A stretch of 64,000 nt of DNA from contig PCYM01000006.1 of the NCBI GenBank assembly GCA_002774875.1, positions 17,434 through 81,433 of the forward strand. Direction: 5' to 3'. Shown piece by piece: positions 1,105-53,027 of the stretch (position 1 is the stretch's first letter; each line of letters begins with the position of its first letter). A program made the translations under genes and the position numbers. The stretch is from Candidatus Uhrbacteria bacterium CG10_big_fil_rev_8_21_14_0_10_50_16. Lineage in GTDB: Bacteria > Patescibacteriota > Patescibacteriia > UBA9934 > UBA11717. The notes under the pieces were generated by a model that saw only the letters and a list, made by a program, of their open reading frames with translations, had not been told where the DNA came from and did not search any database.

Positions 1105-1155
1105 CGTAGGAAATTGCCAGTTTTAGAAATCCATCTTACAAAACTTGATACATCT

Positions 1156-1866: not shown

Positions 1867-1965
1867 GTTCACAAAAGTGCGGTCAAAAAAAACACTCTCC
1901 GTTGTTGAGAGTGTTTTAATTTTAGAAGGGAAAAATCCCTTGTCCGAATAAATTGAAATCTCGTA

Positions 1966-2895: not shown

Positions 2896-2989
2896 ATCCG
2901 TATTATACGACACTTGGTGCAGACGAGCGAGTGTGAATTGACAAACAACCCAATTTACGTTAGGTTGGATCTGTTGGCGCTGCACACAA

Positions 2990-12233: not shown

Positions 12234-12258
12234 CCGTGCCTTGTGCACGGATTTTTTG
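12234..12258 (+). terminator. rho-independent terminator after yidD
   Basis: CCGTGCC-TTGT-GCACGG followed by ATTTTTTG. Confidence 0.5.
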
Positions 12259-12307
12259 TTTCTTATTGTGCAACTATTATTTACTACAACCCCAATCTTG
12301 GCCAAAA

Positions 12308-12391
12308 CTATCCACAGTATTCACGACTTATGCACGAATGCTGTGGACAACTTAGAGCTTATAAACAGGCTTTCTATTCAACTGTGGATAT
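12308..12391. promoter_or_regulatory. DnaA-box cluster upstream of dnaA
   Basis: CTATCCACA 12308-12316, TGTGGACAA 12342-12350, TGTGGATAT 12383-12391. Confidence 0.55.
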
Positions 12392-12471
12392 GTGGTATGA
12401 TTCTGTCACTCGGAAATACAGCCAGGCGCACGGCCGTTAGTCCGCTTCACGCGTATCACTCAAACAAAATT

Positions 12472-38210: not shown

Positions 38211-38274
38211 GGACACGATAGTAATTTTTAGGATTATCTGGATGCCTGACTTCAAACTCTCAATGAAAACGAAA

Positions 38275-38299
38275 CGCGCTCCAGGATTCCTGGAGCGCG
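38275..38299 (-). terminator. rho-independent terminator at the left edge of the GC-rich island
   Basis: CGCGCTCCAGG-ATTC-CTGGAGCGCG (11-bp stem); on the minus strand it is followed by TTTCGTTTTC. Confidence 0.6.
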
Positions 38300-38384
38300 T
38301 CGTTCGTGTTCTGATCTGACTCAACCCAGGACGGGGAGTCTGTTCTCTCGCGCACGATCAGCATTGCGCGAGGTGGGGGGCGGC

Positions 38385-39200
38385 TCAGGTCTCCTCGTCG
38401 TCGGTGGCCGTCGTGGGGCGGGGGGCGAACTGGAGGAACTTCCCGCCCCTCCGAATCGGCCACCAGCCCATCACGGCATAAAAGGCGAACAAGCCTCCCA
38501 CACCGCAGAGGGCGAGCCCCATGAGGATGTAGGCCAGGGCCCACATCCCCCGAGGCTCGCCGGCGGGGTTTGTGCCGGCGCCGGCCACCATCACCGCCAG
38601 GCCCCAGAGGGCCAGGACCATGGCGGGGATGAGGGCGTAGAGCCGCAACATCCCAGCTGAGGTGGTGGTGAAGGGCTCCTTGGCGATCTTCACCACCTTC
38701 TCCTTCTTCCTCTCCACCACCTTGTAGAACACCGTCGGCTTGGTGCCGATGGTCCCGAGGTTGAGGGCCTTCTTGGCCGGTGGGGTAGACCCTCCGACAG
38801 GGGTGAAGGTGAATCTGGCCAGCTTCACCTTCTTGGCCGGAGCCGTCGGAGGGGCGGGGGCGGCCGCAGGGGCAGCTTTGGGAGCTGCCTTCGGTGCAGC
38901 CTTTGGAACTGCGGGTGCCGCGGGAGGCGGGACCGGTGCAGCCTTGGCCGCCGGCACGAGGGCGGCGCACTGCCGTGCTACCCACTCTCGCCGCGAGGTC
39001 TCCGTCTCTCCGCCGCCAAAGGGCCGGCGGAGGTTGACGGCTGCCTCCAAATCCCCCTGGAGCCCTCTGGCAGCTTCCACCCAGGCCAGGAGGTCGGGGT
39101 TGGGGGTGGTCTCGAGGATCACCATGTAGTGACCCTTTGAGACCTCGTCGGGGCCCAACGCAACGCCGGTACTCCGGAGGAGCCTGAATCTGTGGGCCAT
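38385..39200 (-). CDS. hypothetical membrane protein (island gene 1): N-domain, (KAAP)n linker, C-terminal TM hairpin
   Basis: 271 aa from MAHRFRLL with RBS AAAGGAGG; ~65% GC with GC3 bias. Pro/Ala/Lys-rich linker AAPKAAPKAAPAAAP. Two C-terminal TM helices. No recognisable family. Confidence 0.7.
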   Translation of the reverse strand: MAHRFRLLRSTGVALGPDEVSKGHYMVILETTPNPDLLAWVEAARGLQGDLEAAVNLRRPFGGGETETSRREWVARQCAALVPAAKAAPVPPPAAPAVPKAAPKAAPKAAPAAAPAPPTAPAKKVKLARFTFTPVGGSTPPAKKALNLGTIGTKPTVFYKVVERKKEKVVKIAKEPFTTTSAGMLRLYALIPAMVLALWGLAVMVAGAGTNPAGEPRGMWALAYILMGLALCGVGGLFAFYAVMGWWPIRRGGKFLQFAPRPTTATDDEET

Positions 39201-39265
39201 GCGGCCTCCTTTCCGGGCGTTTAGCCCTTGTTTTTGGGGTTTCTCACATCTTGTGTGAGCCAAGC

Positions 39266-39294
39266 AACATACCAGAAAAATGCAATTTTGTCAA
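39266..39294 (-). promoter_or_regulatory. sigma70-like promoter for island gene 1 (TTGACA-17-TATGTT on the minus strand)
   Basis: On the minus strand: TTGACAAAATTGCATTTTTCTGGTATGTT. Confidence 0.5.
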
Positions 39295-39316
39295 TGGGGG
39301 AGGTGTTTGGGTGAGG

Positions 39317-39345
39317 GTTGACAAAACCGTGTTTTTCTGGTATAT
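39317..39345 (+). promoter_or_regulatory. sigma70-like promoter for island gene 2 (TTGACA-17-TATATT)
   Basis: TTGACAAAACCGTGTTTTTCTGGTATATT, a near-identical mirror image of the minus-strand promoter 22 bp away. Confidence 0.55.
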
Positions 39346-39451
39346 TTCTACGTTATTCCTTAGGAATAGCCGCGGCTTCTGCCGTGTTGAACCGTTCTCT
39401 AAAATTGAAACGCGAAAGCGTACGAGACACCCAACACGGAAGGAGCCAAAT

Positions 39452-41452
39452 ATGGCACCCAAGAAGACCCCGTCCCCTACCGTTCCATTTTGGAAGACGG
39501 TGGAGGACATGATCGGCCAGCAGGTCGGTCACGCGGCAGGTAAGGGCCTGTCGCACTCCCACATCGTCACCCTCCTGGTGTCGATGATGAACGATCAGGT
39601 TCTCGGAGCGCTCAGGTTGGCGGGGCCGTCTTTGACGGCCGGCGTCGGCAAGACGGCGTTCCAGGTTTTGAAGGGCCGGATCCCGGTCCTCAAGAACCTC
39701 GCGGATCCCGTTCTGGAGGAGGCCATGGAGGGCCTCCTCAACGGGTTCTTCTCCCACCTCGCCAAGTTCCCCGGTGCGACGGACGCCCAGGCGCGCATGG
39801 CTCTGTTGGCTGCGGCCAACGAGTCCATGATCGCGCACGCCCCGGTCTCCGGGGGGGCGGTCAAGCCCGGCAGCTTCGTGCTGTCGGATGCCGTGCTCAA
39901 GGCCTTGGAGGAGAAGTACGACGAGGACTCCGTCAGGGAGATCCTCGCGTGGTACTGCCACGGGGTGAGCTGCCTCGCAAGGGCAGCCCTGGACATGAAC
40001 GTCCAGGACAGCCTCGCCGTGGAGGCCGGGATGGCCTTCAACCACGGCGATTTCTCGAGCGTGGTCTCCGTGATCACGTTCGTGGAGACGGCCAAGAAGC
40101 ACCAGGGATCCTTCGAGAACCTGGTATACGCGTGCGCGGCCGTGGTCCAGGCCAACACCGCCGCCGACCACAGCGGCATGCGGACCACGTTCATGGCGCG
40201 CCGCTTGTTGGCGCGCGGCCTCAACTGGCTCGGGGTCAACGGGACCCGCCAGAACTTCATGAACGTTCTCGGGAACTGGATCGCCCCCGGACTGCTCAAG
40301 GACGGGCAGTTCGTGGCGTTCCTCGTGGCCCTCTGGGTCGCGTGCTACGTGACCACGGCGGTTCCGTGGTTCTACGCCGCGCGTGCGGGGAGCTTCGTCG
40401 GGATGTTCATCCTTGCGGCGCTCAATCTGATCGTGACCCAGTTCACCCTCAAGGTGCTGGGTCTGGTCGTCGGGGTTCATTCGTCCCTGTACCGGGGAGT
40501 GCTGCACTTCCTCGGCCAGAAGGAGGAGGGTGGCGGGGACAAGCTTCCTGCCCTCCAGTCCCTGAGGGCGCAGGCCTCCAGCCCCCTGCTGGTGGCTACT
40601 GTGCTCAACGCGATCTTGATTTTGCTCCTGGGGGAGACCCCGCGAGCATTCAACTTCGCGATCATGATCTTGATGGCGACCGTCTCGGTCGGTATCCTGA
40701 TCAGCATCTGGGACATGGCCAAGACGAGCCACGCCAAGTTCTTCCTCGATGCGGGGATCAAGTACCTCCTCCCCGTTTTGCTGGCCTCCATGGCCTGGGA
40801 CGTGTACGACGCCTTCACCCAGAGCCAACTCCCCGGCAAGGGGATGCGGCTCATGGGCAATGTCCACGAGTTCTGGGGCTGGGCGACCAGCTTCAGCATG
40901 GGACAGGTGGTCACGGGAGGACTCACGATCCTCTTGGTGGCCGCAGTCGCCTTCGCCCTCAAGCAGGGCAAGGTGTGGCACGCGATCGCCCTCGTGGTGA
41001 TCGCGGTCCCCCTCTCGTGGATCGTGGACTGCTCCGTTTCGGCGCCCAAGCGCGCCGAGGCCGCACAGGAGCAGAGGGCGCAGGAACATGCCCTCCAGCT
41101 GGAGACCCTTCGTCTCCAGCGGCAGGTGGCGGAGGCGGGGAAGACCGTCATTGTCGTCGGCGACCCGGTCCTCGCAATGCGTCAACTGGGTGGCCCCACC
41201 CGCAAGGCGGACATCGCCCTGCGGGTGCCTCGCGAAAGCTCGGCTGCAACCGAGCGCGAGGAGATCCAGATTGAGGATGAGGAAGAGTGGGAGGAGGACC
41301 TCGACATGTTCGTGCCGGAGAAGCCGAACATCAGAGAGATCCTCCGCGAGCGGGAGGAAAGGGCACAGCGTACGGTTCACCACCGTCCGCGGCCCTCCTC
41401 CCGCCGCACGTCGGCCCACCACCACCGCGCGCAACGGAATGCGCGTAGGTGA
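39452..41452 (+). CDS. hypothetical large polytopic membrane protein (island gene 2)
   Basis: 666 aa from MAPKKTPSPTV with RBS AGGAG. ~330-aa soluble N-domain, ~7 predicted TM helices, a coiled-coil (EAAQEQRAQEHALQLETLRLQRQVAEAG) and a charged RE-rich tail. ~65% GC; no recognisable family. Confidence 0.75.
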   Translation: MAPKKTPSPTVPFWKTVEDMIGQQVGHAAGKGLSHSHIVTLLVSMMNDQVLGALRLAGPSLTAGVGKTAFQVLKGRIPVLKNLADPVLEEAMEGLLNGFFSHLAKFPGATDAQARMALLAAANESMIAHAPVSGGAVKPGSFVLSDAVLKALEEKYDEDSVREILAWYCHGVSCLARAALDMNVQDSLAVEAGMAFNHGDFSSVVSVITFVETAKKHQGSFENLVYACAAVVQANTAADHSGMRTTFMARRLLARGLNWLGVNGTRQNFMNVLGNWIAPGLLKDGQFVAFLVALWVACYVTTAVPWFYAARAGSFVGMFILAALNLIVTQFTLKVLGLVVGVHSSLYRGVLHFLGQKEEGGGDKLPALQSLRAQASSPLLVATVLNAILILLLGETPRAFNFAIMILMATVSVGILISIWDMAKTSHAKFFLDAGIKYLLPVLLASMAWDVYDAFTQSQLPGKGMRLMGNVHEFWGWATSFSMGQVVTGGLTILLVAAVAFALKQGKVWHAIALVVIAVPLSWIVDCSVSAPKRAEAAQEQRAQEHALQLETLRLQRQVAEAGKTVIVVGDPVLAMRQLGGPTRKADIALRVPRESSAATEREEIQIEDEEEWEEDLDMFVPEKPNIREILREREERAQRTVHHRPRPSSRRTSAHHHRAQRNARR

Positions 41453-41533
41453 TGTAAACCCCGGTGCAACGCCGGGGTTAGGACACAGGTTGCTCAGCAC
41501 CTAGGACCCAAAGCTGAGTACTCACGAAGACAT

Positions 41534-41575
41534 CACCCTCGACCGGTTCACGGTCGGGGGTGTCTTCTTTTTTAC
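41534..41575 (+). terminator. rho-independent terminator at the right edge of the GC-rich island
   Basis: CACCCTCGACCG-GTTCA-CGGTCGGGGGTG followed by TCTTCTTTTTT. Confidence 0.6.
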
Positions 41576-41773: not shown

Positions 41774-41806
41774 AAAAAAACACCCGCCAAGAGGCGAGTG
41801 GTTTTA
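41774..41806 (-). terminator. rho-independent terminator at the end of the pilin-like operon (minus strand)
   Basis: On the minus strand: CCACTCGCC-TCTT-GGCGGGTG followed by TTTTTTT. Confidence 0.55.
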
Positions 41807-41854: not shown

Positions 41855-42259
41855 CTAGACCTGGGAGGCGAGCAGGAGCTGGCTTATCGCGAAGTTGGAA
41901 ATTGCGAATGCGGACAGAATAATGATCATGCCAATAACTCCCTGTGTAAGCATCGTGGTTGCCTTGGTCACTTTTGCAGGATCTCCTTGCGCGGTCATCC
42001 AAATAAAACCTGCGTAGAGTGTAATGAGGAAGAAGATGATTCCCAAGAGACCCAAGAGCACGTTTACAACGTTTCCGATTGTATTAAAGATCTGATCTTG
42101 GCCTCCACCTCCGATGGTTGTAATATCTGCCGCCTGATCAAGCGCAGCCGTTGGGTCACCCGCATCAAAAACTGCTTGCGCAGGAATTGAGAATGCAAAG
42201 GCGCCGAGAAGGAGGAAGCTCGCAAAGAGTGTTGTGAAGAATTGTTGTGTGCGTGTCAT
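41855..42259 (-). CDS. small secreted two-helix hairpin protein, paralog 1 (VirB2/TrbC pilin-like)
   Basis: Sec signal peptide with AQA cleavage. Shares with the other four paralogs the core IGNVVNVLLGLLGIIFFLITLYAGFIWMTAQGDPAKVTKA...GVIGMIIILSAFAISNFA. Confidence 0.7.
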   Translation of the reverse strand: MTRTQQFFTTLFASFLLLGAFAFSIPAQAVFDAGDPTAALDQAADITTIGGGGQDQIFNTIGNVVNVLLGLLGIIFFLITLYAGFIWMTAQGDPAKVTKATTMLTQGVIGMIIILSAFAISNFAISQLLLASQV

Positions 42260-42297
42260 AGGTAAAAAGTTGAATCAATGTGTTTTAGAGAGAACCG

Positions 42298-42693
42298 TTA
42301 AACGTTTGTTGCAATATCGAGCTGCGTTACCACAAAGTTGGTAATGGAGAACGCCGAGAGCAGTATGAGGAGGCCGATAGTGGCTGTGACGAGAATGTCT
42401 TGCGCTTTCTTTACTTTGGCCGGGTCCCCTTGCGCCGTCATCCAGATCGTCCCTGCATAGACAAACAGGATAAAGACGAGTAGTCCTGAGAGCCCTACGA
42501 CCACATCGATAATTCTACCAATGAGGAAGGGGAGTGATACAGGGTCAGACGCAAACGCTGCAGCAGAAGCGGTTTCGCTCAGCCCTGTCGTCTCCGCGTT
42601 AATGACGGCTAAAACAGGGGTTGCAACGGCAAGACCAAAGAAGAGAAAGAGCGACATGCCCGCCAACAACAGTCGTTGTTTGGTTGCGGTCAT
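42298..42693 (-). CDS. small secreted two-helix hairpin protein, paralog 2
   Basis: Signal peptide ...PVLA; core IGRIIDVVVGLSGLLVFILFVYAGTIWMTAQGDPAKVKKAQD...IGLLILLSAFSITNFVV. Confidence 0.7.
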   Translation of the reverse strand: MTATKQRLLLAGMSLFLFFGLAVATPVLAVINAETTGLSETASAAAFASDPVSLPFLIGRIIDVVVGLSGLLVFILFVYAGTIWMTAQGDPAKVKKAQDILVTATIGLLILLSAFSITNFVVTQLDIATNV

Positions 42694-42778
42694 AACGTGA
42701 GAGGACGAGGATTCATCTGCTCACGCCAGGACCCACAAGGGGCGCCCCTCCCGATTTGGGAGGGGTAGGGAACCTAGC

Positions 42779-43222
42779 TTACTCAGTGATCGAGTTTGCT
42801 GTTGCGCTAATAAACTCAGTAATAACGAAGTTGGTGATTGCGTAAGCGGAGAGAATGATCGCAAGCCCAATCGCACCTGCCACAATAATCTGCTGTGCTT
42901 TTTGTACTTTTGCTTCCGTTCCACCAGCGGTCATCCAAATGGCACCACCGTAGAGAATGATAATGACAGCTACGATTCCCAAAAATCCAAGTAGCACGTT
43001 AATGATGTTTCCGATTGTGGACTTGAGGTTTGCCTGTCCAAGCCCTGTTGCACCCGTAAAATCATCACTCAACAAATCATCGGCCGTGAGTGTTGACGCC
43101 GCGTGTGCACTATCAACGAGCACAGGTGTAAGCATAGACACGGCCATGGTACCGCCAAACAAGAGGGCAGCGATTGCGAACGATGTAAGAAGGTTGCGAA
43201 GAGCGAAACGTACGTTGGTCAT
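42779..43222 (-). CDS. small secreted two-helix hairpin protein, paralog 3
   Basis: Core IGNIINVLLGFLGIVAVIIILYGGAIWMTAGGTEAKVQKAQQ...IGLAIILSAYAITNFVI. Confidence 0.7.
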   Translation of the reverse strand: MTNVRFALRNLLTSFAIAALLFGGTMAVSMLTPVLVDSAHAASTLTADDLLSDDFTGATGLGQANLKSTIGNIINVLLGFLGIVAVIIILYGGAIWMTAGGTEAKVQKAQQIIVAGAIGLAIILSAYAITNFVITEFISATANSITE

Positions 43223-43245
43223 ACAGTGTTTGTTTTTATGACAGC

Positions 43246-43581
43246 TTAGGCTGCTGTCGCGCCACCAAGTGTGTTGATGACGAAGGTTGCTAAAATGTTT
43301 GCCGCGAAAATAACCGCGAGGCCTATGACCGCCCAGATGAGCGTGTCTCTTCCTTTTGTAATTCTGTCAGGTTTACCTCCGGCCGTCAACCAAAGAAATC
43401 CACCCCAAATAACCATGGCCAATGCGAGCGATCCGGTGATTCCAAGAACCGCCTGAATCACGAATCCTATGAGCTGCGGAATACTGCGTGACCCCAATGG
43501 ATTGTACAACTGACTTGCAAACGCTGCTTGCGGTAATAGGCTCAAACCGAGTGAGAGAAACAAATAGTAGAGACGCTTCAT
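43246..43581 (-). CDS. small secreted two-helix hairpin protein, paralog 4
   Basis: Signal peptide ...AAFA; core IGFVIQAVLGITGSLALAMVIWGGFLWLTAGGKPDRITKGRD...IGLAVIFAANILATFVI. Confidence 0.7.
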   Translation of the reverse strand: MKRLYYLFLSLGLSLLPQAAFASQLYNPLGSRSIPQLIGFVIQAVLGITGSLALAMVIWGGFLWLTAGGKPDRITKGRDTLIWAVIGLAVIFAANILATFVINTLGGATAA

Positions 43582-43584
43582 AAT

Positions 43585-44136
43585 CTATGGTTGTTGAATA
43601 TAACATTCGCCTTCTGCATCGGTCGTGTCACAACAAACACCCGCTTTACAGATAAATCCTGGAGCACAGGCTTTTCCATTGTTGAGTTGCTCGGAAACTG
43701 GCGCGGGTGGTGGTGCACCACAGGTAAGGAATTCACTGCTACTCACGCTGCTTGCATCACCGCTGCGCAAGACGTTGACGCCGTACTGCACGCCAGAGAA
43801 CGCCCCGAAGACAATCAGAAGTCCAATAAAGGAAGAGATAAACATCTTGGTTGCCTTGGTTACCTTTGCAGAATCTCCACGCGCGGTGAGATAGAGAACA
43901 CCTCCCCAAACAATTACGACGAGCAGAATAATCCCCACCATTCCCATAAGGATATCGGCAATGTTGATAAAGAGCTGTAGCGCGCAGTCGAGGGCAAGAT
44001 TTGCATCTGGTCCCCCAGGCTTTGTCGCACATGTGGGAATAATACCGGACGCATCGATTGCGGTTCCTGTTGAGAGTCCCGGTGTATTGGGAATCGTCGC
44101 ATTCGCCGCGAGCGCTGTATGGATAAATGGGATCAT
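43585..44136 (-). CDS. small secreted two-helix hairpin protein, paralog 5, with a Cys-rich C-terminal extension
   Basis: Core ...ILMGMVGIILLVVIVWGGVLYLTARGDSAKVTKATK...IGLLIVFGAFSGVQY, followed by CGAPPPAPVSEQLNNGKACAPGFICKAGVCCDTTDAEGECY. Confidence 0.7.
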   Translation of the reverse strand: MIPFIHTALAANATIPNTPGLSTGTAIDASGIIPTCATKPGGPDANLALDCALQLFINIADILMGMVGIILLVVIVWGGVLYLTARGDSAKVTKATKMFISSFIGLLIVFGAFSGVQYGVNVLRSGDASSVSSSEFLTCGAPPPAPVSEQLNNGKACAPGFICKAGVCCDTTDAEGECYIQQP

Positions 44137-45548
44137 AGCGTTTGATTGACTTCGTTTTGTGCAATACCCAAGGCTTCTTCGATGGTATGCGTTCCCGATA
44201 CAATACTGTCGATCATTTTCTCCATAGCTTTCTCTGCGCTTGTTGCATCGTTTCCATTGTACCAGGCCTGCGCCGACAAGACCTGATCTGCAAAGACGGA
44301 AAGGTCAAAGTCTTCATTTTGTTTGAGCACGAGGCTGCGAAGCGCTGTTGGTTTTCTCGCAGCACTGAGGAAACTGTCGACGTTTTCTTCTGCTGCCGTA
44401 AACTGGATAAAATCCCAAGCCCAGTCTGGGTTATCACTTTTCTTAGAGACACTCTCGATCCAGAAGTTAGCGTAGTTAATGCGTGCGCGAAGGTCTTCTG
44501 AGATCTGCGGCATAGGCGCTAGCCCGATGTTGAGCTTCTGTGCACGGGCCTTAATCAGCGGATCGTGGTAGCTGTAGCCAAAGAAAAATGCTGTTTGACC
44601 CGCAACGAATGCATCGAAACTCCCCGTAAAGCTCTTGTCCCAGGTGTAGGCTTCCTTGGTTGGATTGGCAAAGTCGGTATAAAAGCGAAGCGCGTCGGCG
44701 GAAGGAAGGCTTCGACCGCTAGGGCCGCTCACTGTCTCTGCAAAACGTGCTTGTCCTCTTGCGTCGCTCATCTGTGCGCCACTTTGCATCATGAGAAGCG
44801 AGAGAATATCCGTTGATCGTTCTACATTACTACCGGTTCCAATCGCTGCACCTGATTGAGCAATCCCTCCATTGGCGTTGTACTTGGTGAGTTTAACAAC
44901 GTCTGCTTGAAATTCTTCCCACGTTGCTGGCGGTTGAGGAATACCAGCCGCATCCAAAATGTCTTTGTTGTAGTACAGCGCCAGTGTATCTACGGAGAGT
45001 GGAAGCCCATAGATACGATTCTTTGTACCAGCGGCGTCCGTTGCGGGGTAGACCACGTATTCTGGAACCACTTGCACAAATGAATCCGTCAGCTCTCGTA
45101 ACGAAAGCGTTTGTTCAGTTCTAAGGGCGACGACGAGTTCCTTTTTGAGGGTTCCCTTCATCTCCTGGTAGGTGAGTTTAACTGTGTCAGGCATGGGGGA
45201 AATGAGATCCGTGTAGCCTTTCATCCAGGTGTTGTGCACGGAAAAAATGTCTGGTCCACGGTCTTCCGCAAGCGCGCGAATCAGCTCGCCCTCGTACTCT
45301 TCAAACCGCAATTTGCGATAGTTGATTTTAACGTTTGGGTGAATGCGACGATATGCTTCGATCATGGGATCGAATGTATCCTGTCCATCAAACACACGCC
45401 AAACCGTGAGTTCAATTGGTTGCAATGCTTGTTGTGCGGCATTGCTTCCACCACGACAACCAAGACCAGGAAAGATGGCGAGTCCAACGCTTAAGAGAGT
45501 AAGGATCCAAAGACGTGTTCGTAACATACGTACCGATTGTTCATTCAT
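44133..45548 (-). CDS. extracellular solute-binding lipoprotein (ABC-transporter SBP, sugar-binding family-1 type)
   Basis: Lipoprotein signal MLRTRLWILTLLSVGLAIFPGLGC. SBP_bac_1-like layout (YGLPLSVDTLALYYNKDIL, FFFGYSYH). The stop overlaps the next gene by 4 nt. No permease or ATPase in the window. Confidence 0.85.
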   Translation of the reverse strand: MNEQSVRMLRTRLWILTLLSVGLAIFPGLGCRGGSNAAQQALQPIELTVWRVFDGQDTFDPMIEAYRRIHPNVKINYRKLRFEEYEGELIRALAEDRGPDIFSVHNTWMKGYTDLISPMPDTVKLTYQEMKGTLKKELVVALRTEQTLSLRELTDSFVQVVPEYVVYPATDAAGTKNRIYGLPLSVDTLALYYNKDILDAAGIPQPPATWEEFQADVVKLTKYNANGGIAQSGAAIGTGSNVERSTDILSLLMMQSGAQMSDARGQARFAETVSGPSGRSLPSADALRFYTDFANPTKEAYTWDKSFTGSFDAFVAGQTAFFFGYSYHDPLIKARAQKLNIGLAPMPQISEDLRARINYANFWIESVSKKSDNPDWAWDFIQFTAAEENVDSFLSAARKPTALRSLVLKQNEDFDLSVFADQVLSAQAWYNGNDATSAEKAMEKMIDSIVSGTHTIEEALGIAQNEVNQTL

Positions 45549-45610
45549 TTCAAAAGATGATTCTATTATAGCGGATTTATGCAAAAGATGTGTGTGCATG
45601 AAATAAAAAA

Positions 45611-45636
45611 CACCCGATCGCTCGGATGTTTTTGTG
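45611..45636 (-). terminator. rho-independent terminator after galU (minus strand)
   Basis: On the minus strand: CATCCG-AGCGAT-CGGGTG followed by TTTTTTAT. Confidence 0.5.
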
Positions 45637-45637
45637 T

Positions 45638-46525
45638 TTAGGCTTGGTCAATAAGCGAACGCATGTAAGCAAGGATGTCGTCCTTCATGTCTGCATGTTT
45701 GAGTGCGTAGGCTATGGAGGTTTTTGCATAGGCGAGGTTGGTGCCGCAATCCCACCAGGTTCCATCCAAGATACGCGCGTGTAGGGTACCACCGGTTTTG
45801 ATGTAGGAATCAAAAGCGTTTGCGAGTCGGATCTCACCCGAGGCGTCTTTTGGTTCATTCTTCAATACGTTGATATATTCTGTCGTGAGAATCTCACGCC
45901 CAATGTGCGCGTAGGTAGAGGGTGCATCCTTCTTTGCGGGTTTCTCCACAAACTTACTCACTTTCCATGCAACGTCGTTTACGGGTTCGCCATCAATCAC
46001 ACCAAAACGCTCTACGCGATCAATTCCCACATCTTCCACGAGCGTCACACACCCCCCGAACTCATTGTAAACATCCATGAGCTGACCAATCGCCGGACCC
46101 GACGTGCCTTCAATCAAATCGTCTCCATAACACACGGCCACGGCCTCACCTTCGTCAATAAACGGGATGGCTGCGAGTAGCGCGTGTCCGTCACCCAGGG
46201 GCTTGTCTTGTCGCACGTACGCAAAGTTCGCGAGCTTGCCTACGTTTTTTACTTTGGCGAGGAGCTCTGTTTTTCCGGATTGCTCCAAGCGATACTCTAA
46301 CTCAAAGTTGCGATCAAAGTGATTTTCAATGGCTGCCTTACCGTTGGACGTTACAAAGATAATGTCTTTAATGCCAGCCTCTACAAACTCCTCGACGATA
46401 TATTGCAAAATAGGCTTGTCGACAATAGGAAACATCTCTTTTGGCATGGCTTTTGAGGCAGGGAGTGCGCGTGTTCCCATACCGGCGACAAGGAACACGG
46501 CTTTGGTGATTGGTCGATTGTTCAT
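45638..46525 (-). CDS. galU: UTP--glucose-1-phosphate uridylyltransferase
   Basis: Start placed at MNNRPITKAVFLVAGMGTRALPASKAMPKEM; nucleotidyltransferase fold. Confidence 0.9.
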   Translation of the reverse strand: MNNRPITKAVFLVAGMGTRALPASKAMPKEMFPIVDKPILQYIVEEFVEAGIKDIIFVTSNGKAAIENHFDRNFELEYRLEQSGKTELLAKVKNVGKLANFAYVRQDKPLGDGHALLAAIPFIDEGEAVAVCYGDDLIEGTSGPAIGQLMDVYNEFGGCVTLVEDVGIDRVERFGVIDGEPVNDVAWKVSKFVEKPAKKDAPSTYAHIGREILTTEYINVLKNEPKDASGEIRLANAFDSYIKTGGTLHARILDGTWWDCGTNLAYAKTSIAYALKHADMKDDILAYMRSLIDQA

Positions 46526-46661
46526 AGGTGTTTGAATCAGTAGATGTGGGGATGATTGCATATTTTGGGGGCGACGTCTAGCACAAATCACGATTGACCA
46601 ATGACTGTGGGCGTGGTAGGTTTGTGCTCGTTGTGGGGAGGTTTAGGGTGTCGATGAGTGA

Positions 46662-48846: not shown

Positions 48847-50316
48847 ATGCATGCAGAACTTCAAAAATTCTTGATCACGTTTGCGCAGACGGTATCCCTC
48901 AATAAAGGACGAGCCTATTTTGTGGGTGGGTACGTGCGCGATCAGCTGCGCGGGATTGCGAGCAAGGATATTGATATTGAGGTGCACGGGGTGGAGCCGA
49001 AGACACTACGGCTTATTGTCGAGAACCATTTTAAGGACGTACAAGAACAAGGAGAGTCATTTGGTGTGTTGCGTGTCTTTTGGCAGTCGTCGGATAAGTC
49101 GGAACAGGTAGAAATTGATATCTCGCTTCCGCGAACAGACTCAAAAGTAGCTCCGGGCCATACGGGATTTGATGTACGAGTGGATCCGTTTATGGGCGTG
49201 GAGGCAGCGGCACAACGTCGTGATTTTACCATCAACGCGATGATGCAAGATGTACTCACGGGTAAGGTTGTGGATCCGTTCGGCGGAAAACTGGATCTTG
49301 AGGCGGGAATTTTGCGTGCCGTTGATGTAGATTTGTTTAGCGACGATCCTCTGCGTGTGTTGCGAGCGGTGCAGTTTGCCGCGCGGTTTGAACTCATGGT
49401 CGAAGAAGAGACGTGCTCGCTTATGCGTGGCATGGTGGATCAACTTGCGGAACTCTCCATAGATCGCAAACGTGTAGAATGGCAAAAATTATTTTTACAG
49501 GCACGGAAGCCTTCCATTGGATTGCAACTAGCACGCGATCTGGATTTGTTTGTGGGTCCGTTGGCGATTTTAGAGAAGATGGCGCAGACCGAGCAGGACC
49601 CCACTTGGCATCCGGAGGGATCTGTCTGGAATCATACGGTGTGGGGATGTGACGAAGCGGCATTGCTTGCAGAACGCGAAGAACTCTCGGAAGAGGATCG
49701 TCTTACGCTTGTTTTAGGAAACCTGTGCCACGATATTGGAAAGATCGACACGACCACACGTAGTGGAGGCCATGTGCACTCGGCGGGACACCAGGAAGTT
49801 GGTCAACCCTATATTGCACCTGTATTAACGGCAATGGGATTTGAAAAATTTGTGGATTCGTCACAAAAAATTATGCGATTTCACCACCACCCCATGTGGC
49901 TGTTTGAACATCAGGAGGAATCCACAGAGGGTCGCCTTCATGCACTCGCGCGACAGCTTAAACCCCTCACGATGCGCATGCTCTCCTACGCCACGGAGGT
50001 AGATTTACGCAGTCGTGGTCCGTACCCAGCAGATGCAACAGGCATGCGACGCCCAGAAATTGCGGATTGGTTCCGCGAGCAGGCGTGTAAACAGGATGTA
50101 TTGGATCACCCGCCAGGGGATGTGGTACGCGGATCAGACCTTATGCATCTTGGACTCAAACCGGGACCCGTCTTTGGACTCATTGTGCGCGTGGCGAATC
50201 AACTCCACGACGATCTCGGCTTGTCTCGCGAGACAATTTTGGAACGGATGGCAATAAAAAAAGACGAGCTGCTTGAGCTCGATCTCTTGTCGTTGTATGA
50301 GACGCTAGCCGAGTAG
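48847..50316 (+). CDS. cca: CCA tRNA nucleotidyltransferase / poly(A)-polymerase family with HD domain
   Basis: Nucleotidyltransferase head GGYVRDQLRG..DIDIEV; HD motif LCHDIGK. Confidence 0.85.
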   Translation: MHAELQKFLITFAQTVSLNKGRAYFVGGYVRDQLRGIASKDIDIEVHGVEPKTLRLIVENHFKDVQEQGESFGVLRVFWQSSDKSEQVEIDISLPRTDSKVAPGHTGFDVRVDPFMGVEAAAQRRDFTINAMMQDVLTGKVVDPFGGKLDLEAGILRAVDVDLFSDDPLRVLRAVQFAARFELMVEEETCSLMRGMVDQLAELSIDRKRVEWQKLFLQARKPSIGLQLARDLDLFVGPLAILEKMAQTEQDPTWHPEGSVWNHTVWGCDEAALLAEREELSEEDRLTLVLGNLCHDIGKIDTTTRSGGHVHSAGHQEVGQPYIAPVLTAMGFEKFVDSSQKIMRFHHHPMWLFEHQEESTEGRLHALARQLKPLTMRMLSYATEVDLRSRGPYPADATGMRRPEIADWFREQACKQDVLDHPPGDVVRGSDLMHLGLKPGPVFGLIVRVANQLHDDLGLSRETILERMAIKKDELLELDLLSLYETLAE

Positions 50317-51594
50317 CTTTTTAGGTGAAAATGCACGTTCTTTTTCTGCTGCGATGAGGAGCAGGATGATAAACACCGCGCCCAACAAGGCGAGGTCGTT
50401 TTTAAGAAAGGGAACGTCTACCATTCCGTGGATCATCATTTCTGTGAGCCCGGCGCCAAACGCAACCACATAATAGCGGTTTGCTTTTTTGGTCGTGACG
50501 CGCCAAATACCAAATCCGATCAAACAAAATCCGGCAAGTCCAAGTACGCCAAATTCAACCCAGGTGTTTAAAAAGACGTTGTGTGGATATTGAAAAATTT
50601 CCAAATGCGTATGTGTGTGGAATGGGGCGATGGCAACAGGGAAGTTGTTGGGTCCGGCGCCGAGTAAAAAATTCTGAGGAGAGGCAAGGAGAAAATGGGC
50701 CGTTTCATTCCATTGAGCGGTGCGTGTCTGACCAGACCAATCTTGCAGTGTGATTTTTTGAAAGACGGTCGCGCGAAGGGATGGAATAACGAGGATCGTG
50801 AGACTGAGAAAAATAACGATTGGGAGGGTGATGGACGCTCCTTTTTTGTAGAGAAAACTGACCAAGACGAGACTTGCAACGATAGCAAAGAGCGCCGCCT
50901 CTGTCTGTGCGAGGTAAACGGCCATAAGCCCCAAGAAGAACGCGGACCCCAACACGCGTCGCTGTGCCGTGGTGAGTCGACTTTTATCATCCATAAAAAA
51001 CACCGCCAGCATGGTAATAATGGGCGCAATAAAATGACCAAGCGCGTTTGGATAAGGGTAGAGACCTGTTACTCGGCGTTCGAGCGCCCAAGCCTCTGGG
51101 ATGGTAATACCGGTAAGCGCTTGGAAGATGGCGACCACGCTTAGAATGATTACGGGGATGGAGAGGGCGATCAAAAAATGACGCATGCGGAAGTTTTCAG
51201 AGGATCGACTTATGCTCCACATAATTGCGCCAAGAAGCATTGGCTCAATGAGATAACTTTTCATCACGTTGATGGCACTTAATGGGTCGGATGTTTGCAA
51301 AAGACCCAAGATTCCACCTATTAGTACGAGTAGAATCCCAATACTGATGAGTCGGTGCCCAGATGACAGATTCTTTAACGAATCACGTCGACGTTCTTGC
51401 ATAAATCCGAGCGCCCATACTACAACAAGCACTAAAAACATGAGCTCTAAGAAGTTGGTTGGAAATGGACCGATTGTAAATTTGATCAAATAGAGGGGGA
51501 GAGAAGCGACAAACACAAGAACGCCTTTGCGAACGGTACGTGTGCAGAGGTAGGCGTAGATGGAGAGAAGCACGATGGATAACAGCGCGGTCAT
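50305..51594 (-). CDS. O-antigen ligase / Wzy-like polytopic membrane protein
   Basis: 429 aa, >10 TM helices, with a large periplasmic loop near the C-terminal third. Confidence 0.6.
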   Translation of the reverse strand: MTALLSIVLLSIYAYLCTRTVRKGVLVFVASLPLYLIKFTIGPFPTNFLELMFLVLVVVWALGFMQERRRDSLKNLSSGHRLISIGILLVLIGGILGLLQTSDPLSAINVMKSYLIEPMLLGAIMWSISRSSENFRMRHFLIALSIPVIILSVVAIFQALTGITIPEAWALERRVTGLYPYPNALGHFIAPIITMLAVFFMDDKSRLTTAQRRVLGSAFFLGLMAVYLAQTEAALFAIVASLVLVSFLYKKGASITLPIVIFLSLTILVIPSLRATVFQKITLQDWSGQTRTAQWNETAHFLLASPQNFLLGAGPNNFPVAIAPFHTHTHLEIFQYPHNVFLNTWVEFGVLGLAGFCLIGFGIWRVTTKKANRYYVVAFGAGLTEMMIHGMVDVPFLKNDLALLGAVFIILLLIAAEKERAFSPKKLLG

Positions 51595-53027
51595 GATTTT
51601 TTGAGAAAGAGTTTGACTGTTTCCATCTTAACACCACCAAGGCCCAACACAATAGCGACATAAATTGCTCCTCCTCCGAGTATAAGGGCGAGGAGAAGGA
51701 GATGATTGACGACCAAGATGGAGGTAATGCTTGCTAGGGCTACTGTCATAACAGCCGTTGCGAGGAGATAGACGCTGACATTGCGTACGCGTGGTCTAAA
51801 CGATGTCTGGCGGATGACGACCGTTGTTGTGAGTATGGCAATAAGTAGCTCGGAGATAACGGTAGTCCAGGCGGCACCAAACGCGCCGTAGAGAGGAATT
51901 GTAATAAGGTATAGGGTGGTTGCGACGACGGCCGTTGCAATGTAGGCGGGGAGAATCGCGCGTTGTTTATTAACGCCTACGATTGCGTGCGCAAACAGGA
52001 TTCCAAAGAAGACGATCGTGTTGGCAATCATAAGGATCACCAAGTAGGGAGCAGCACCGGAAAATTCCGCACCTGCAATGAGTCGCATAATCGGCTCCGC
52101 AAGAATAATGGCACCTCCGAGCATAGGAAAACTGGCGAGCGCAAAAAAATCAAACGCCTGTTGGATAAGCGCGTTCATTTTGTCTTTGGATTTTGTGCTC
52201 CAGGCACGCACCATCATTGGGAGTAGAAGCCCCATAAACATGGTGGGAATAACGGTCACAACGTCTAATACTTTGTAGGCGGCGCCGTAGAGACCAATCT
52301 CGGCGTCGGATCTGTAAAAGGAGAGAAAGAGAATGTCGCCTTTAAGGTAGAGGAGGTTAAAGAAAATAGAAATGGCAATCGGCCAGCTGCGAGAAAGAAA
52401 CTGTTTAAGGAGCGCAAAATTGATGGAGAAGCGAATGGACACAAAACGACGTGCAAACGCAATGTTCATAATAAGGAGCAACACATTGCCAATGGCAAAG
52501 GCTCCCATCATGTACGGTGCACTTGGGTAAGCGGTGGCAAACCAGGCAACCACGAGCAAAATGAGTCCGCGACTTACGGCTTCGGCGAGCGCTGGGCGCC
52601 ACATTGCGAGGCCTTTTTGATAGACGCCAATGAGCATCTGACTGCTCGTCATAAAGAAGTAGGAGAAGGCACCCACGGAAATAGTGAGTTTGACCACGGG
52701 TGCGTAGGGCATATACCAGGCGATCAATACGGCAAGCGCAAAGAAAAAGAGCCCGGAGAGCAGGCGAGAGGTAAACGCGGTGGAGACGATGGTGTTGATG
52801 TTGGCTTTCTCCTCACTGATCATCTGTGTAGTTGTGAGGGTAAATCCAAAATCGGCCAGGGCGCCGGCCACGGCCAAGAACGTCATAGCAAGCGTAAATT
52901 GACCGTACCCGTCAACGCCCAGCGAGCGGGTGAGAATAGCAATAGTAAACACGCCAAACGCGGTACCAACCACGCGGCCGATAAGTTGAACAAGGGTGTT
53001 TTTTGCAATCGCGTGAACCTGTGACAT
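51591..53027 (-). CDS. polysaccharide/oligosaccharide flippase (MOP/Wzx superfamily)
   Basis: 478 aa, ~14 TM helices; the N-terminus KNTLVQLIGRVVGTAFGVFTIAILTRSLG is typical of Wzx/MurJ-like flippases. Confidence 0.75.
   Translation of the reverse strand: MSQVHAIAKNTLVQLIGRVVGTAFGVFTIAILTRSLGVDGYGQFTLAMTFLAVAGALADFGFTLTTTQMISEEKANINTIVSTAFTSRLLSGLFFFALAVLIAWYMPYAPVVKLTISVGAFSYFFMTSSQMLIGVYQKGLAMWRPALAEAVSRGLILLVVAWFATAYPSAPYMMGAFAIGNVLLLIMNIAFARRFVSIRFSINFALLKQFLSRSWPIAISIFFNLLYLKGDILFLSFYRSDAEIGLYGAAYKVLDVVTVIPTMFMGLLLPMMVRAWSTKSKDKMNALIQQAFDFFALASFPMLGGAIILAEPIMRLIAGAEFSGAAPYLVILMIANTIVFFGILFAHAIVGVNKQRAILPAYIATAVVATTLYLITIPLYGAFGAAWTTVISELLIAILTTTVVIRQTSFRPRVRNVSVYLLATAVMTVALASITSILVVNHLLLLALILGGGAIYVAIVLGLGGVKMETVKLFLKKS

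What the first reader, a model, noticed from the sequence alone, without database searches (positions are those of the whole stretch)
41855..45599. Operon of an orphan solute-binding lipoprotein followed by five tandem paralogous VirB2/TrbC-like small hairpin proteins
Six co-directional minus-strand genes with 3-40-bp gaps, the first overlapping the next by 4 nt. The first is an SBP_bac_1-type lipoprotein with no cognate permease or ATPase in the window.

It is followed by five paralogs of 111-183 aa. Each has a Sec signal peptide (AxA cleavage) and a shared core: hydrophobic helix, Y.G..WMTA.G....KV.KA, hydrophobic helix, IG..IILSAF.ITNFV. This topology (signal peptide plus two TM helices joined by a short charged loop) is the hallmark of VirB2/TrbC conjugative pilins and related T4SS pilin-like proteins. 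However, no other T4SS component (VirB4, VirB6, VirD4) is present nearby.

Five divergent copies in tandem suggest a variable surface filament or membrane-active repertoire, possibly interacting with the SBP. I have not seen this arrangement described.
Basis: partly seen in the sequence, partly recalled or inferred. Interest (0 to 1): 0.75.

Follow-up and report, generated by a model that had tools for sequence, protein, structure and literature searches.

The report
Sugar-binding lipoprotein plus secretion-pilin gene array
This operon in an ultra-small Uhrbacteria (Patescibacteria) genome encodes a lipid-anchored sugar-binding protein without a transporter, followed by five VirB2-like type IV secretion pilins; such pilin arrays are already published, but their strict coupling to this binding protein appears not to have been described.

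Summary
Six co-directional minus-strand genes at 41855-45599 lie between two terminator-like hairpins.

- **Identity.** The first gene is an SBP_bac_1 lipoprotein. The other five are paralogs that match Pfam PF18895 (T4SS_pilin). The source is Candidatus Uhrbacteria (class ABY1), about 30 kb from dnaA.
- **What is already known.** Tandem arrays of 2-11 divergent VirB2-like pilins in Patescibacteria were published in 2023-2025 and are essential in Southlakia epibionticum. That part is not novel.
- **What seems new.** In all 20 patescibacterial loci where DNA downstream of an SBP homolog was available, and in 6 further loci, the SBP is immediately followed by 3-12 pilin genes. It is usually preceded by galU. 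No ABC permease and no VirB4/VirB6/VirD4 lies within 10 kb. Actinobacterial homologs of the SBP are instead followed by permeases.
- **Nature of the paralogs.** They are old positional orthologs under purifying selection (dN/dS 0.05-0.17), not a fast-churning repertoire.
- **Best reading.** This is a conserved accessory module of the Patescibacteria T4SS. The pilins are hairpin subunits. The SBP is probably a transport-independent ligand-recognition partner. This is inferred from synteny only.
- **Also seen.** A conserved GC-rich island of fast-evolving membrane-protein genes abuts the array and is unexplained.

The parts
45606..45633 (-). Terminator-like hairpin after galU, marking the upstream edge of the SBP-pilin transcription unit in this genome
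   Evidence: 12-pair stem followed by a T-run. In relatives galU and the SBP instead overlap by 4 nt or are separated by 1-5 nt (public gene calls).
45638..46591 (-). galU-like UTP-glucose-1-phosphate uridylyltransferase. It is the conserved upstream neighbour of the module. The public gene call starts at 46561.
   Evidence: Pfam NTP_transferase 1.1e-25. TIGR01099 galU 1.5e-79, below the equivalog cut-off. It lies on the same strand directly upstream of the SBP in 17 other genome-contig loci and in L027, L032, L034, L036 and L037.
44133..45527 (-). Lipid-anchored MalE/CUT1-type solute-binding protein (464 aa) with no cognate permease or ATPase. The ORF is open up to 45599.
   Evidence: SBP_bac_1 6.4e-28. 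100% identical to P0001. Lipobox Cys invariant. AF2 pLDDT 91. Foldseek top hits are oligosaccharide-binding SBPs at E 1e-24 to 1e-21. The PDB profile search finds sugar SBPs. A roughly 30-aa insertion, predicted as a beta-hairpin at residues 115-139, is absent from actinobacterial homologs.
43585..44136 (-). Pilin 1 (183 aa), the long first-position pilin. It has a hairpin core, a conserved Cys pair before helix 1 and a Cys-rich C-terminal tail. It overlaps the SBP stop codon by 4 nt.
   Evidence: PF18895 1.7e-09. AF2 helices 45-84 and 89-131 with pLDDT above 90, plus a small three-stranded tail. The first pilin is the longest or among the longest in most related arrays.
43246..43581 (-). Pilin 2 (111 aa), the shortest copy and the one most like VirB2/TrbC
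   Evidence: PF18895 6.4e-14; TrbC PF04956 4e-06 at 27.4 bits against a cut-off of 27.9. Its best hit is array position 2 in 15 of 17 loci.
42779..43222 (-). Pilin 3 (147 aa), with a long (about 41 aa) signal peptide
   Evidence: PF18895 1.1e-05 at 25.9 bits against a cut-off of 26.6. dN/dS 0.066 against L001.
42694..42778 (-). 85-nt intra-operon spacer with two stable stem-loops. It may be an RNA processing, stability or attenuation element.
   Evidence: RNA fold -41.8 kcal/mol, z = -3.66. In L001 the stems are conserved and the loops differ.
42298..42693 (-). Pilin 4 (131 aa). The public gene call uses the internal Met at 42657, giving 119 aa.
   Evidence: PF18895 3.6e-07. The residues upstream of the internal Met are conserved in L001.
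41855..42259 (-). Pilin 5 (134 aa)
   Evidence: PF18895 1.7e-10; NF045849 at 41.6 bits against a cut-off of 40. Identical to PIR47456.1 / COV06_03290.
41781..41800 (-). Intrinsic-terminator-like hairpin ending the operon
   Evidence: 8-pair stem with 6 GC pairs, followed by TTTTTTT.

Best explanation
[quoted passage not shown] The host here is a Candidatus Uhrbacteria genome (class ABY1).

**Shown.**
- The five genes encode members of Pfam T4SS_pilin.
- Each has two long hydrophobic helices joined by a short Lys/Arg-containing loop.
- Four of the five have Sec signal peptides.
- All five are old paralogs kept in a fixed order under purifying selection.
- They are co-oriented and tightly spaced with a lipoprotein of the MalE/CUT1 oligosaccharide-binding fold, between two terminator-like hairpins.
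- The SBP-then-array arrangement, usually preceded by galU, recurs in every related patescibacterial locus examined. No ABC permease or VirB4 lies within 10 kb.

**Inferred.**
- After Sec export and signal-peptide cleavage, the pilins sit in the membrane as hairpins with the basic loop facing the cytoplasm.
- A T4SS encoded elsewhere in the genome extracts and assembles them into a heteromeric pilus-like or channel structure.
- The less conserved N-terminal segments, and the Cys-rich tail of pilin 1, face outward.
- The lipid-anchored SBP acts with this structure as a surface ligand-recognition or contact factor, probably for a host-derived sugar or glycan, rather than as the receptor of an importer. 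Lipoproteins play such a role in mycoplasma conjugation, where ligand binding but not transport is needed.
For: **Family assignment.** PF18895 hits on all five, a near-threshold TrbC hit, and NF045849 hits. Homologs are named 'pilin', 'Mbov_0395 family pilin-like conjugal transfer protein' and 'VirB2 component' by NCBI and JGI.

**Topology.** Hydropathy analysis. The AF2 hairpin has pLDDT above 90. The loop motif carries conserved K/R.

**Organism.** Uhrbacteria, placed in class ABY1 by PMC12102498 Table S1.

**Published context.**
- 441 arrays of 2-11 pilins were found in 383 assemblies. Within-array identity averages 25%. The pilin gene lies near virB4 in only 1135 of 1948 assemblies that have both (PMC12102498).
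- The array is essential in Southlakia epibionticum (PMC10633639; PMC12857230).
- T4SS pilins are highly expressed in cultured Paceibacterales (PMC10936435).

**Synteny.**
- The SBP is followed by 3-12 pilins in 20 of 20 loci with downstream DNA.
- The same holds in L027, L032, L033, L034, L036 and L037.
- Five of six arrays reached by starting from a pilin have the SBP upstream.
- Control: actinobacterial SBP homologs are followed by BPD_transp_1 permeases.

**Selection and orthology.** dN/dS is 0.05-0.17. Positional orthology is shown. The hairpin core is 90-97% identical to L001, while the signal peptide and termini are less conserved.

**SBP integrity.** AF2 pLDDT 91 with sugar-SBP fold matches. 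Many aromatic residues are invariant.

[quoted passage not shown] For the P48 SBP lipoprotein, ligand binding but not transport governs ICE acquisition (PMC12892991).
Against: - No T4SS ATPase or channel gene is in the 64-kb window or within 10 kb of the module in any relative. The link to a T4SS therefore rests on family membership alone.
- Presence of VirB4 in this particular genome could not be checked. Of the four CG10 Uhrbacteria assemblies, one is listed without VirB4.
- A PDB sequence search found no solved pilin.
- The reviews read here describe a pilus only as a possibility for Patescibacteria T4SSs (PMC12857230).
- The SBP-pilin link is synteny only. An SBP can serve a permease encoded elsewhere.
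- galU and nearby envelope genes suggest that part of the conserved gene order may be inherited neighbourhood rather than shared function.
- One related array (L035) lacks the SBP.
Confidence: 0.6

Rival explanations
1. The SBP is an ordinary receptor of a sugar ABC importer whose permease and ATPase genes lie elsewhere in the reduced genome. Its position next to the pilins, and next to galU, reflects inherited gene order or co-expression of envelope proteins near the replication origin. There is no physical or functional partnership.
For: - The fold is a full, well-predicted CUT1 SBP with conserved aromatic residues typical of sugar-binding clefts.
- Public annotations call it a 'multiple sugar transport system substrate-binding protein'.
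- The surrounding genes are envelope and housekeeping genes with conserved order: Wzy_C, flippase, SpoIID, PGI, NifS.
- One array exists without the SBP.
Against: - No permease or ATPase lies within 10 kb in 26 related loci or in the 64-kb window. Non-patescibacterial homologs keep theirs adjacent.
- The SBP-then-array adjacency survives down to 33-42% SBP identity, in lineages where the other neighbours differ: L016, L017, L018, L021, L022, L033.
- A 4-nt stop/start overlap with pilin 1 suggests translational coupling.
- A clade-specific beta-hairpin insertion is present.
Confidence: 0.25
2. The five hairpin proteins are not filament subunits. They are resident membrane proteins, for example parts of a channel, holin-like or membrane-active peptides, or immunity proteins. 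They share only a distant ancestry with VirB2.
For: - The hairpin fold is generic.
- No T4SS machinery lies nearby.
- The TrbC model is not reached at its gathering cut-off.
- The literature read here treats a Patescibacteria T4SS pilus only as a possibility.
Against: - Four of five exceed the curated PF18895 cut-off, and pilin 5 exceeds the NF045849 cut-off.
- In other Patescibacteria the same family sits inside virB4 clusters and is essential together with them (PMC12102498; PMC10633639).
- No relatives were found on viral contigs, where holins would be expected.
- Long signal peptides and a basic inter-helix loop fit the VirB2/TrbC design.
Confidence: 0.1
3. The array is an antigenic or host-range variation repertoire. 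The copies are interchangeable major pilins that diversify rapidly, so that different hosts can be engaged or defences evaded. This has been proposed for Bartonella and Anaplasma VirB2 paralogs and suggested for Patescibacteria.
For: - Within-array identity is low, at 24-43%.
- The predicted exposed N- and C-terminal segments are generally less conserved than the core.
- Array size varies from 3 to 12 among relatives.
- PMC12102498 suggests this reading.
Against: - Copies 1-3 keep their array position in 13-15 of 17 loci, and copies 4 and 5 do so among closer relatives.
- All five are under purifying selection, with dN/dS 0.05-0.17.
- No pseudogenes or recent duplicates occur in this array. 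The closest pair is only 43% identical.
- The first copy has its own conserved architecture.
Confidence: 0.1

Closest known systems
VirB2-like pilin arrays of Patescibacteria T4SS (Quinonero-Coronel et al. 2025, PMC12102498; essential six-pilin array of Southlakia epibionticum ML1, Wang et al. 2023, PMC10633639)
   Same: - Same Pfam family (PF18895).
- Same phylum.
- Tandem array of divergent paralogs: five here, within the reported range of 2-11. Identity is low, against a reported average of 25% and maximum of 54%.
- Chromosomal location in the origin-proximal region.
- No relaxase nearby.
   Different: - In Southlakia the array lies inside the virB4 cluster. Here no T4SS machinery is within the window.
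- The array here is led by an SBP lipoprotein and usually galU. The text and held supplements of these papers do not mention such a partner.
Mycoplasma ICE conjugation module: Mbov_0395-family pilin-like protein (NCBIfam NF045849), CDS14 surface lipoprotein (PMC6030558) and P48 nucleoside-binding SBP lipoprotein (PMC12892991)
   Same: - Monoderm, reduced-genome bacteria.
- The pilins here hit NF045849, one above its cut-off.
- A surface lipoprotein is required for T4SS-mediated transfer.
- An SBP acts through ligand binding rather than transport.
   Different: - Those systems are mobile conjugative elements with a relaxase or DDE recombinase.
- P48 is chromosomal, acts in the recipient, belongs to a different SBP type (nucleoside-binding) and keeps its transporter.
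- CDS14 was not compared with any SBP here.
- No tandem pilin array is described there.
VirB2/TrbC/TraA conjugative pilins of diderm T4SS (Pfam PF04956)
   Same: - Signal peptide, two hydrophobic helices and a short basic loop.
- Small size.
- Weak but consistent HMM similarity: 27.4 bits for pilin 2, and several homologs carry both Pfam hits.
   Different: - The hits fall below the PF04956 gathering score.
- The genes are not next to virB3/virB4.
- The host is regarded as a monoderm (PMC12857230).
- There is no evidence for cyclisation, acetylation or lipid co-assembly.
- Five ordered paralogs replace one major pilin.
Tandem VirB2 paralogs of Bartonella and Anaplasma phagocytophilum T4SS (as cited in PMC12102498)
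   Same: Several divergent VirB2 genes lie in a row in an organism that depends on a host cell.
   Different: - Those arrays are interpreted as antigenic variation. Here the paralogs are ancient positional orthologs under purifying selection.
- No SBP partner is present there.
CUT1-family oligosaccharide ABC-transporter binding proteins (e.g. T. maritima MalE2 6dts, CpMnBP1 4r9g, CbpB 7x0k)
   Same: Same fold, with Foldseek E 1e-21 to 1e-24. Same Pfam family, and a lipoprotein anchor as is usual in monoderms.
   Different: - No adjacent permease or ATPase.
- A clade-specific roughly 30-aa beta-hairpin insertion.
- Invariable linkage to pilin genes.

Membership tests
Pfam PF18895 T4SS_pilin | Score at or above the curated gathering cut-off (26.6 bits) | tested here: met
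   Scores are 41.3, 30.6, 52.2 and 38.0 bits for four copies. The 147-aa copy scores 25.9 bits, 0.7 below the cut-off. Precomputed hits on the public copies agree.
Pfam PF18895 T4SS_pilin | Small exported protein with two hydrophobic helices joined by a short charged loop | tested here: met
   Hydropathy segments. AF2 helices 45-84 and 89-131 with pLDDT above 90. Loop motif with conserved K/R. A classic signal peptide is present in 4 of 5 copies.
Patescibacteria VirB2 array (as defined in PMC12102498) | 2-11 pilin genes in tandem (or separated by one gene) in a Patescibacteria genome, with low mutual identity | tested here: met
   Five adjacent genes. Identity is 24-27% over the full alignment and 33-43% over the core. 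The host is Uhrbacteria, class ABY1.
Patescibacteria VirB2 array (as defined in PMC12102498) | Genome also encodes the T4SS signature ATPase VirB4 | not testable with these tools
   Only 64 kb of the genome is visible and it holds no VirB4. Of the four CG10 Uhrbacteria assemblies, three are listed as VirB4-positive and one as negative. Which of them is the source could not be resolved.
VirB2/TrbC conjugative pilin (Pfam PF04956) | Score at or above the gathering cut-off (27.9 bits) | tested here: not met
   The best score is 27.4 bits (pilin 2). Pilin 3 scores 13.9 bits. The other three give no hit.
VirB2/TrbC conjugative pilin (Pfam PF04956) | Encoded within a T4SS gene cluster (virB3/virB4/virB6 neighbours) | tested here: not met
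   None is in the window or within 10 kb of the module in 26 related loci.
VirB2/TrbC conjugative pilin (Pfam PF04956) | Structure matches solved conjugative pilins | tested here: inconclusive
VirB2/TrbC conjugative pilin (Pfam PF04956) | Polymerises into an extracellular pilus | not testable with these tools
   This needs microscopy or biochemistry.
CUT1 ABC-transporter solute-binding protein (SBP_bac_1) | Family HMM and two-lobed SBP fold | tested here: met
   PF01547 at 99.1 bits. The PDB profile search hits sugar SBPs down to 3.8e-25. AF2 pLDDT is 91, with Foldseek E 1e-24.
CUT1 ABC-transporter solute-binding protein (SBP_bac_1) | Operon partner permeases (BPD_transp_1) and ATPase | tested here: not met
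   Absent from the window and from all patescibacterial loci examined. Present next to the actinobacterial homologs.
CUT1 ABC-transporter solute-binding protein (SBP_bac_1) | Binds a sugar or oligosaccharide ligand | not testable with these tools
   Only indirect evidence is available: many aromatic residues are invariant.
NCBIfam NF045849 Mbov_0395 family pilin-like conjugal transfer protein | Score at or above the equivalog cut-off (40 bits) | tested here: inconclusive
   Pilin 5 scores 41.6 bits and passes. The other four score 18.8-25.1 bits.

The most novel reading that the evidence does not exclude
In ABY1 Patescibacteria, and in some other lineages, a MalE-type lipoprotein may have been recruited away from ABC transport. 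It would then be a dedicated ligand-sensing or host-glycan-docking subunit of a T4SS pilus module.

The module would comprise:
- galU;
- the SBP;
- an ordered set of specialised pilins;
- an adjoining GC-rich island of very fast-evolving secreted and polytopic membrane proteins.

Together these would form the host-recognition front end of the still-unexplained, essential Patescibacteria T4SS.
Probability: 0.3. Interest if true: 0.75.

Novelty: new variant of a known kind. Interest (0 to 1): 0.5.

Why it matters
[quoted passage not shown] The Southlakia T4SS genes and its pilin array are essential for epibiotic growth, yet the system's function is described as completely unknown (PMC11665869).

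A binding protein with a recognisable sugar-binding fold, strictly linked to the pilin arrays, gives a concrete experimental handle. Its ligand can be determined in vitro without culturing the organism. That ligand would indicate what the apparatus recognises on or takes from the host.

The result also shows that many pilin arrays lie away from virB4 in a conserved module of their own. Surveys centred on virB4 neighbourhoods would miss this.

Tried and rejected
- **Profile search of the pilin alignment against PDB sequences.** It found no pilin. The only matches were insignificant disintegrin-like hits (E about 5) to the Cys-rich tail of pilin 1.
- **Looking for T4SS machinery next to the module.** Candidates downstream in L016, L018 and L021 turned out to be rpsO, NYN, PNPase and ComM. 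Other neighbours were glycosyltransferases, DUF2079 and GyrA.
- **VirB4 in the source genome.** This could not be determined.
- **Supplements of PMC12102498.** A search for SBP_bac, PF01547 or galU near virB4 found nothing. The stored file is truncated, so this is weak negative evidence.
- **Viral-contig scan with the pilin alignment.** No relatives were found. This argues against a phage or holin origin, but the scan used a single peptide pattern.
- **The GC-rich island proteins.** Pfam, NCBIfam, PHROGs and PDB sequence searches gave no hit. A VirB6-like identity was considered but has no support.
- **Recent foreign insertion as the origin of the GC-rich island.** This was rejected because the same anomaly recurs at the same position in many relatives.

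Full report
**1. The observation.**

ORF listing confirms six co-directional minus-strand ORFs between 41855 and 45599. The first matches Pfam SBP_bac_1 at 6.4e-28.
- Its most likely start is the Met at 45527 (MLRTRLWILTLLSVGLAIFPGLGC...). That gives a 464-aa product identical to a public protein (P0001).
- The lipobox cysteine is invariant in 62 homologs.
- A signal peptidase II gene lies elsewhere in the window.

The next five ORFs (183, 111, 147, 131 and 134 aa) are genuine paralogs.
- Pairwise BLASTP E-values run from 1e-10 to 4e-27, with 33-43% identity over the core.

Three corrections apply.
- One intergenic gap is 85 nt, not 40 or less.
- The 183-aa protein has no classic signal peptide. 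It starts with a short, uncharged, conserved MIPFIHTALAAN.
- The SBP ORF probably starts 72 nt downstream of the stated end.

Terminator-like hairpins at 45633-45606 and 41800-41781 bracket the unit. The SBP stop overlaps the first pilin start (ATGA).

**2. Identity of the small proteins.**

- All five hit Pfam PF18895 (T4SS_pilin). Four are above the gathering score and the fifth is 0.7 bits below it.
- The 111-aa copy reaches 27.4 bits on TrbC/VirB2 PF04956, against a cut-off of 27.9.
- All five hit NCBIfam NF045849 (Mbov_0395 family pilin-like conjugal transfer protein), one above its cut-off.
- A profile search returned 727 relatives, nearly all carrying PF18895. Some are named 'pilin' or 'VirB2 component' by NCBI or JGI.
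- Hydropathy analysis and an AlphaFold2 model show a hairpin of two long helices (residues 45-84 and 89-131 of the 183-aa protein, pLDDT above 90). A four-residue turn joins them, within the loop motif that carries conserved Lys/Arg.
- Fold searches cannot separate this hairpin from generic helical hairpins. A PDB sequence search finds no pilin. The assignment therefore rests on sequence families.

**3. Organism and literature.**

- SBP and pilin homologs come from Candidatus Uhrbacteria and related Patescibacteria MAGs.
- Two of the pilins are identical to PIR47460.1 and PIR47456.1 (COV06_03310 and COV06_03290) of a Candidatus Uhrbacteria CG10_big_fil_rev assembly.
- The window is chromosomal. 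dnaA lies at 12241-13842 and dnaN at 14095-15222, and the cumulative GC-skew minimum is there too.

The literature already covers such arrays.
- Quinonero-Coronel et al. 2025 (PMC12102498) surveyed 3,035 Patescibacteria genomes with exactly these Pfam models. They reported 441 arrays of 2-11 VirB2-like pilin genes in 383 assemblies. Average identity was 25%. Pilins lay near virB4 in only 1135 of 1948 assemblies. Uhrbacteria fall in class ABY1, where T4SS loci tend to lie near comF, recG and radA.
- Wang et al. 2023 (PMC10633639) showed that the pilin series inside the T4SS cluster of Southlakia epibionticum is essential.
- A 2025 review singles this out (PMC12857230).
- T4SS pilins are among the most highly expressed unknown genes in cultured Paceibacterales (PMC10936435).

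The pilin array as such is therefore a known kind of feature.

**4. What appears new: the SBP coupling.**

A scan of species-representative genomes with the SBP returned 22 patescibacterial and 4 actinobacterial loci. An HMM built from the five paralogs was run on all ORFs of these loci.
- In all 20 patescibacterial loci that include DNA downstream of the SBP, the SBP is immediately followed on the same strand by 3-12 pilin-like ORFs.
- None is present in the actinobacterial loci. There the SBP is followed by BPD_transp_1 permeases instead.
- Independent public gene calls with precomputed Pfam hits show the same arrangement in L027.

I also started from pilins rather than from the SBP.
- Five of six arrays have the SBP directly upstream: L032 (Magasanikbacteria), L033, L034, L036 and L037.
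- One array, next to dnaA, lacks it: L035.

A galU-like nucleotidyltransferase precedes the SBP on the same strand in most loci.
- It often overlaps the SBP by 4 nt or is separated by only 1-5 nt.
- In this window a terminator-like hairpin separates the two genes.
- Glycosyltransferases (GT28/MGDG-synthase-like, GT2) or DUF2079 lie in or near some arrays.

No VirB4, VirB6, VirD4 or ABC permease was seen within 10 kb in any of these loci. The text and held supplements of the T4SS papers contain no mention of solute- or substrate-binding proteins next to arrays. Two full-text searches combining pilin or VirB2, CPR or Patescibacteria, and SBP terms found nothing relevant.

**5. Nature of the paralogs.**

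- Copies 1, 2 and 3 of this window find their best match at the same array position in 13-15 of 17 related loci. Copies 4 and 5 do so among the closer relatives.
- Against the 90%-identical relative L001, all five genes are intact with dN/dS of 0.05-0.17. Synonymous sites are near saturation, so these are rough values.
- The hairpin core is 90-97% identical to L001. Signal peptides and the predicted exposed termini are generally less conserved.
- The first-position pilin is the long one in most arrays. In more distant relatives it has a normal signal peptide, a conserved Cys pair just before helix 1, and a variable, often Cys-rich tail. AF2 models that tail here as a small three-stranded unit.

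This pattern fits specialised, non-redundant subunits, such as major and minor pilins or a tip subunit. It does not fit a rapidly turning-over variation repertoire.

**6. The SBP.**

- AF2 gives a confident model (pLDDT 91).
- The closest solved structures are oligosaccharide-binding proteins of the CUT1 family: Tlet_1705, the mannooligosaccharide-binding CpMnBP1, T. maritima MalE1-3 and the cellodextrin-binding CbpB. Foldseek E-values are 1e-24 to 1e-21. The sequence profile search agrees.
- Many aromatic residues are invariant in the clade. This is what one expects if a sugar-binding cleft is retained, but the pocket could not be mapped.
- Relative to actinobacterial and some distant patescibacterial homologs, the Uhrbacteria-type proteins carry an insertion of about 30 residues. 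It is predicted as a protruding beta-hairpin at residues 115-139.

**7. Mechanism.**

Shown:
- family membership;
- topology;
- a compact gene cluster bracketed by terminator-like hairpins;
- conserved SBP-array synteny without a transporter;
- purifying selection;
- positional orthology.

Inferred:
- The pilins are exported and inserted as hairpins. A T4SS encoded elsewhere assembles them into a heteromeric pilus or channel-like structure.
- The lipid-anchored SBP works with them as a ligand-recognition or contact factor rather than as an importer receptor.

Precedents exist in the only other monoderm system with homologous pilin-like proteins.
- In mycoplasma ICEs the surface lipoprotein CDS14 is essential for conjugation (PMC6030558).
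- The SBP lipoprotein P48 controls ICE acquisition through ligand binding, not transport (PMC12892991).

The main rival is that the SBP serves a permease encoded elsewhere and the linkage is inherited gene order. Whole-genome profiling would settle this.

**8. Side observation: the GC-rich island.**

- Directly downstream of the array, window 38.3-41.5 kb has 60-72% GC against 41-49% in the flanks.
- Codon-position GC shows the real genes are 39452-41452 on the plus strand and 38385-39263 on the minus strand. The first is 666 aa with GC3 0.85, six hydrophobic segments in its C-terminal half, and its own terminator at 41534-41562. The second is 292 aa with GC3 0.81.
- One public gene call took the antisense ORF.
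- The same compositional jump occurs at the same position in at least ten related loci. In L009 it is 0.56-0.64 against 0.37-0.45, and in L006 it is 0.67 against about 0.42. In L037 the corresponding large gene has GC3 of 0.90.
- In most of them the region encodes a 570-785-aa protein with a soluble N-terminal part and 5-7 hydrophobic segments, plus one or two small, probably secreted, low-complexity proteins.
- None of these proteins has any Pfam, NCBIfam, PHROGs or PDB match.
- The 666-aa protein has only eight other representative clusters among 1.84 billion.
- A profile of that family matches the positional counterpart in L020 (hhalign probability 98.5%, E 1.9e-15). It does not match those in L009, L034 or L037.

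Why a fast-evolving gene set next to the pilin array keeps a much higher GC3 than its genome is unexplained.

**9. Verdict.**

The conserved galU-SBP-pilin architecture, detached from virB4, seems to be an undescribed variant of the Patescibacteria pilin array. It is a useful experimental lead.

Noticed in passing
window 38260-41570, and the same position in L001, L002, L003, L006, L009, L013, L020, L027, L033, L034, L037: A GC-rich island (60-72% GC against 41-49% in the flanks; GC3 up to 0.85-0.90) lies directly downstream of the pilin array. The island recurs at this position across related Uhrbacteria-type loci. In the loci whose ORFs were examined it encodes a 570-785-aa polytopic membrane protein and one or two small secreted-looking proteins. 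None has a family or structure match. These proteins evolve far faster than the neighbouring SBP. The cause of the compositional anomaly is unknown.
   Followed up: partly
window 39353-41425 (-) versus 39452-41452 (+): One public gene call on the source contig took a 690-aa antisense ORF in the GC-rich island. Codon-position GC (GC3 0.85 on the plus strand, against GC1 0.86 for the antisense frame) and a plus-strand terminator at 41534-41562 indicate that the 666-aa plus-strand gene is the real one.
   Followed up: yes
window 42694-42778 (-): The 85-nt spacer between pilins 3 and 4 folds into two stable stem-loops (-41.8 kcal/mol, z = -3.7). In the 90% relative L001 the stems are conserved while the loops differ. 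The spacer is more conserved than synonymous sites in the flanking genes. It may be an intra-operon RNA processing or attenuation element that sets pilin ratios.
   Followed up: partly
window 50305-53027, and the corresponding genes in L008, L020, L027, L034: A Wzy_C-family protein (O-antigen ligase / O-oligosaccharyltransferase type) and a Polysacc_synt flippase lie about 5 kb from the module. They are syntenic in several relatives. Together with galU and the glycosyltransferases inside or near some arrays (L016, L018, L032), this raises the untested possibility of pilin or envelope glycosylation linked to the module.
   Followed up: no
window 43585-43740 (-): C-terminal 50 residues of pilin 1: A Cys-rich tail (six Cys in the last 46 residues) follows the second helix. 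AF2 models it as a small three-stranded unit. Its only sequence resemblance is an insignificant one to disintegrins (E about 5). Tails of first-position pilins in relatives vary in length and are either Cys-rich or acidic.
   Followed up: partly
window 1028-2985: A tyrosine recombinase gene (Phage_integrase with SAM-like N-domain, 1966-2985, minus strand) sits beside tRNA-Arg (1028-1104). It could be XerC/D or the edge of an integrated element.
   Followed up: no
window 57766-59211 (-): The RuvB ORF is 481 aa, and the RuvB_N domain starts only at residue 168. This is either a long N-terminal extension or an over-extended TTG start.
   Followed up: no
L035 10001-12302: A different Patescibacteria contig carries a five-gene T4SS_pilin array without any SBP, about 6 kb from dnaA/dnaN. 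At least two array architectures therefore exist.
   Followed up: partly
L002, L004, L005, L007-L011, L014, L018 (record titles): Ten public MAGs that carry this Patescibacteria-type module are titled 'uncultured Gammaproteobacteria bacterium'. These are probably mislabelled records.
   Followed up: no
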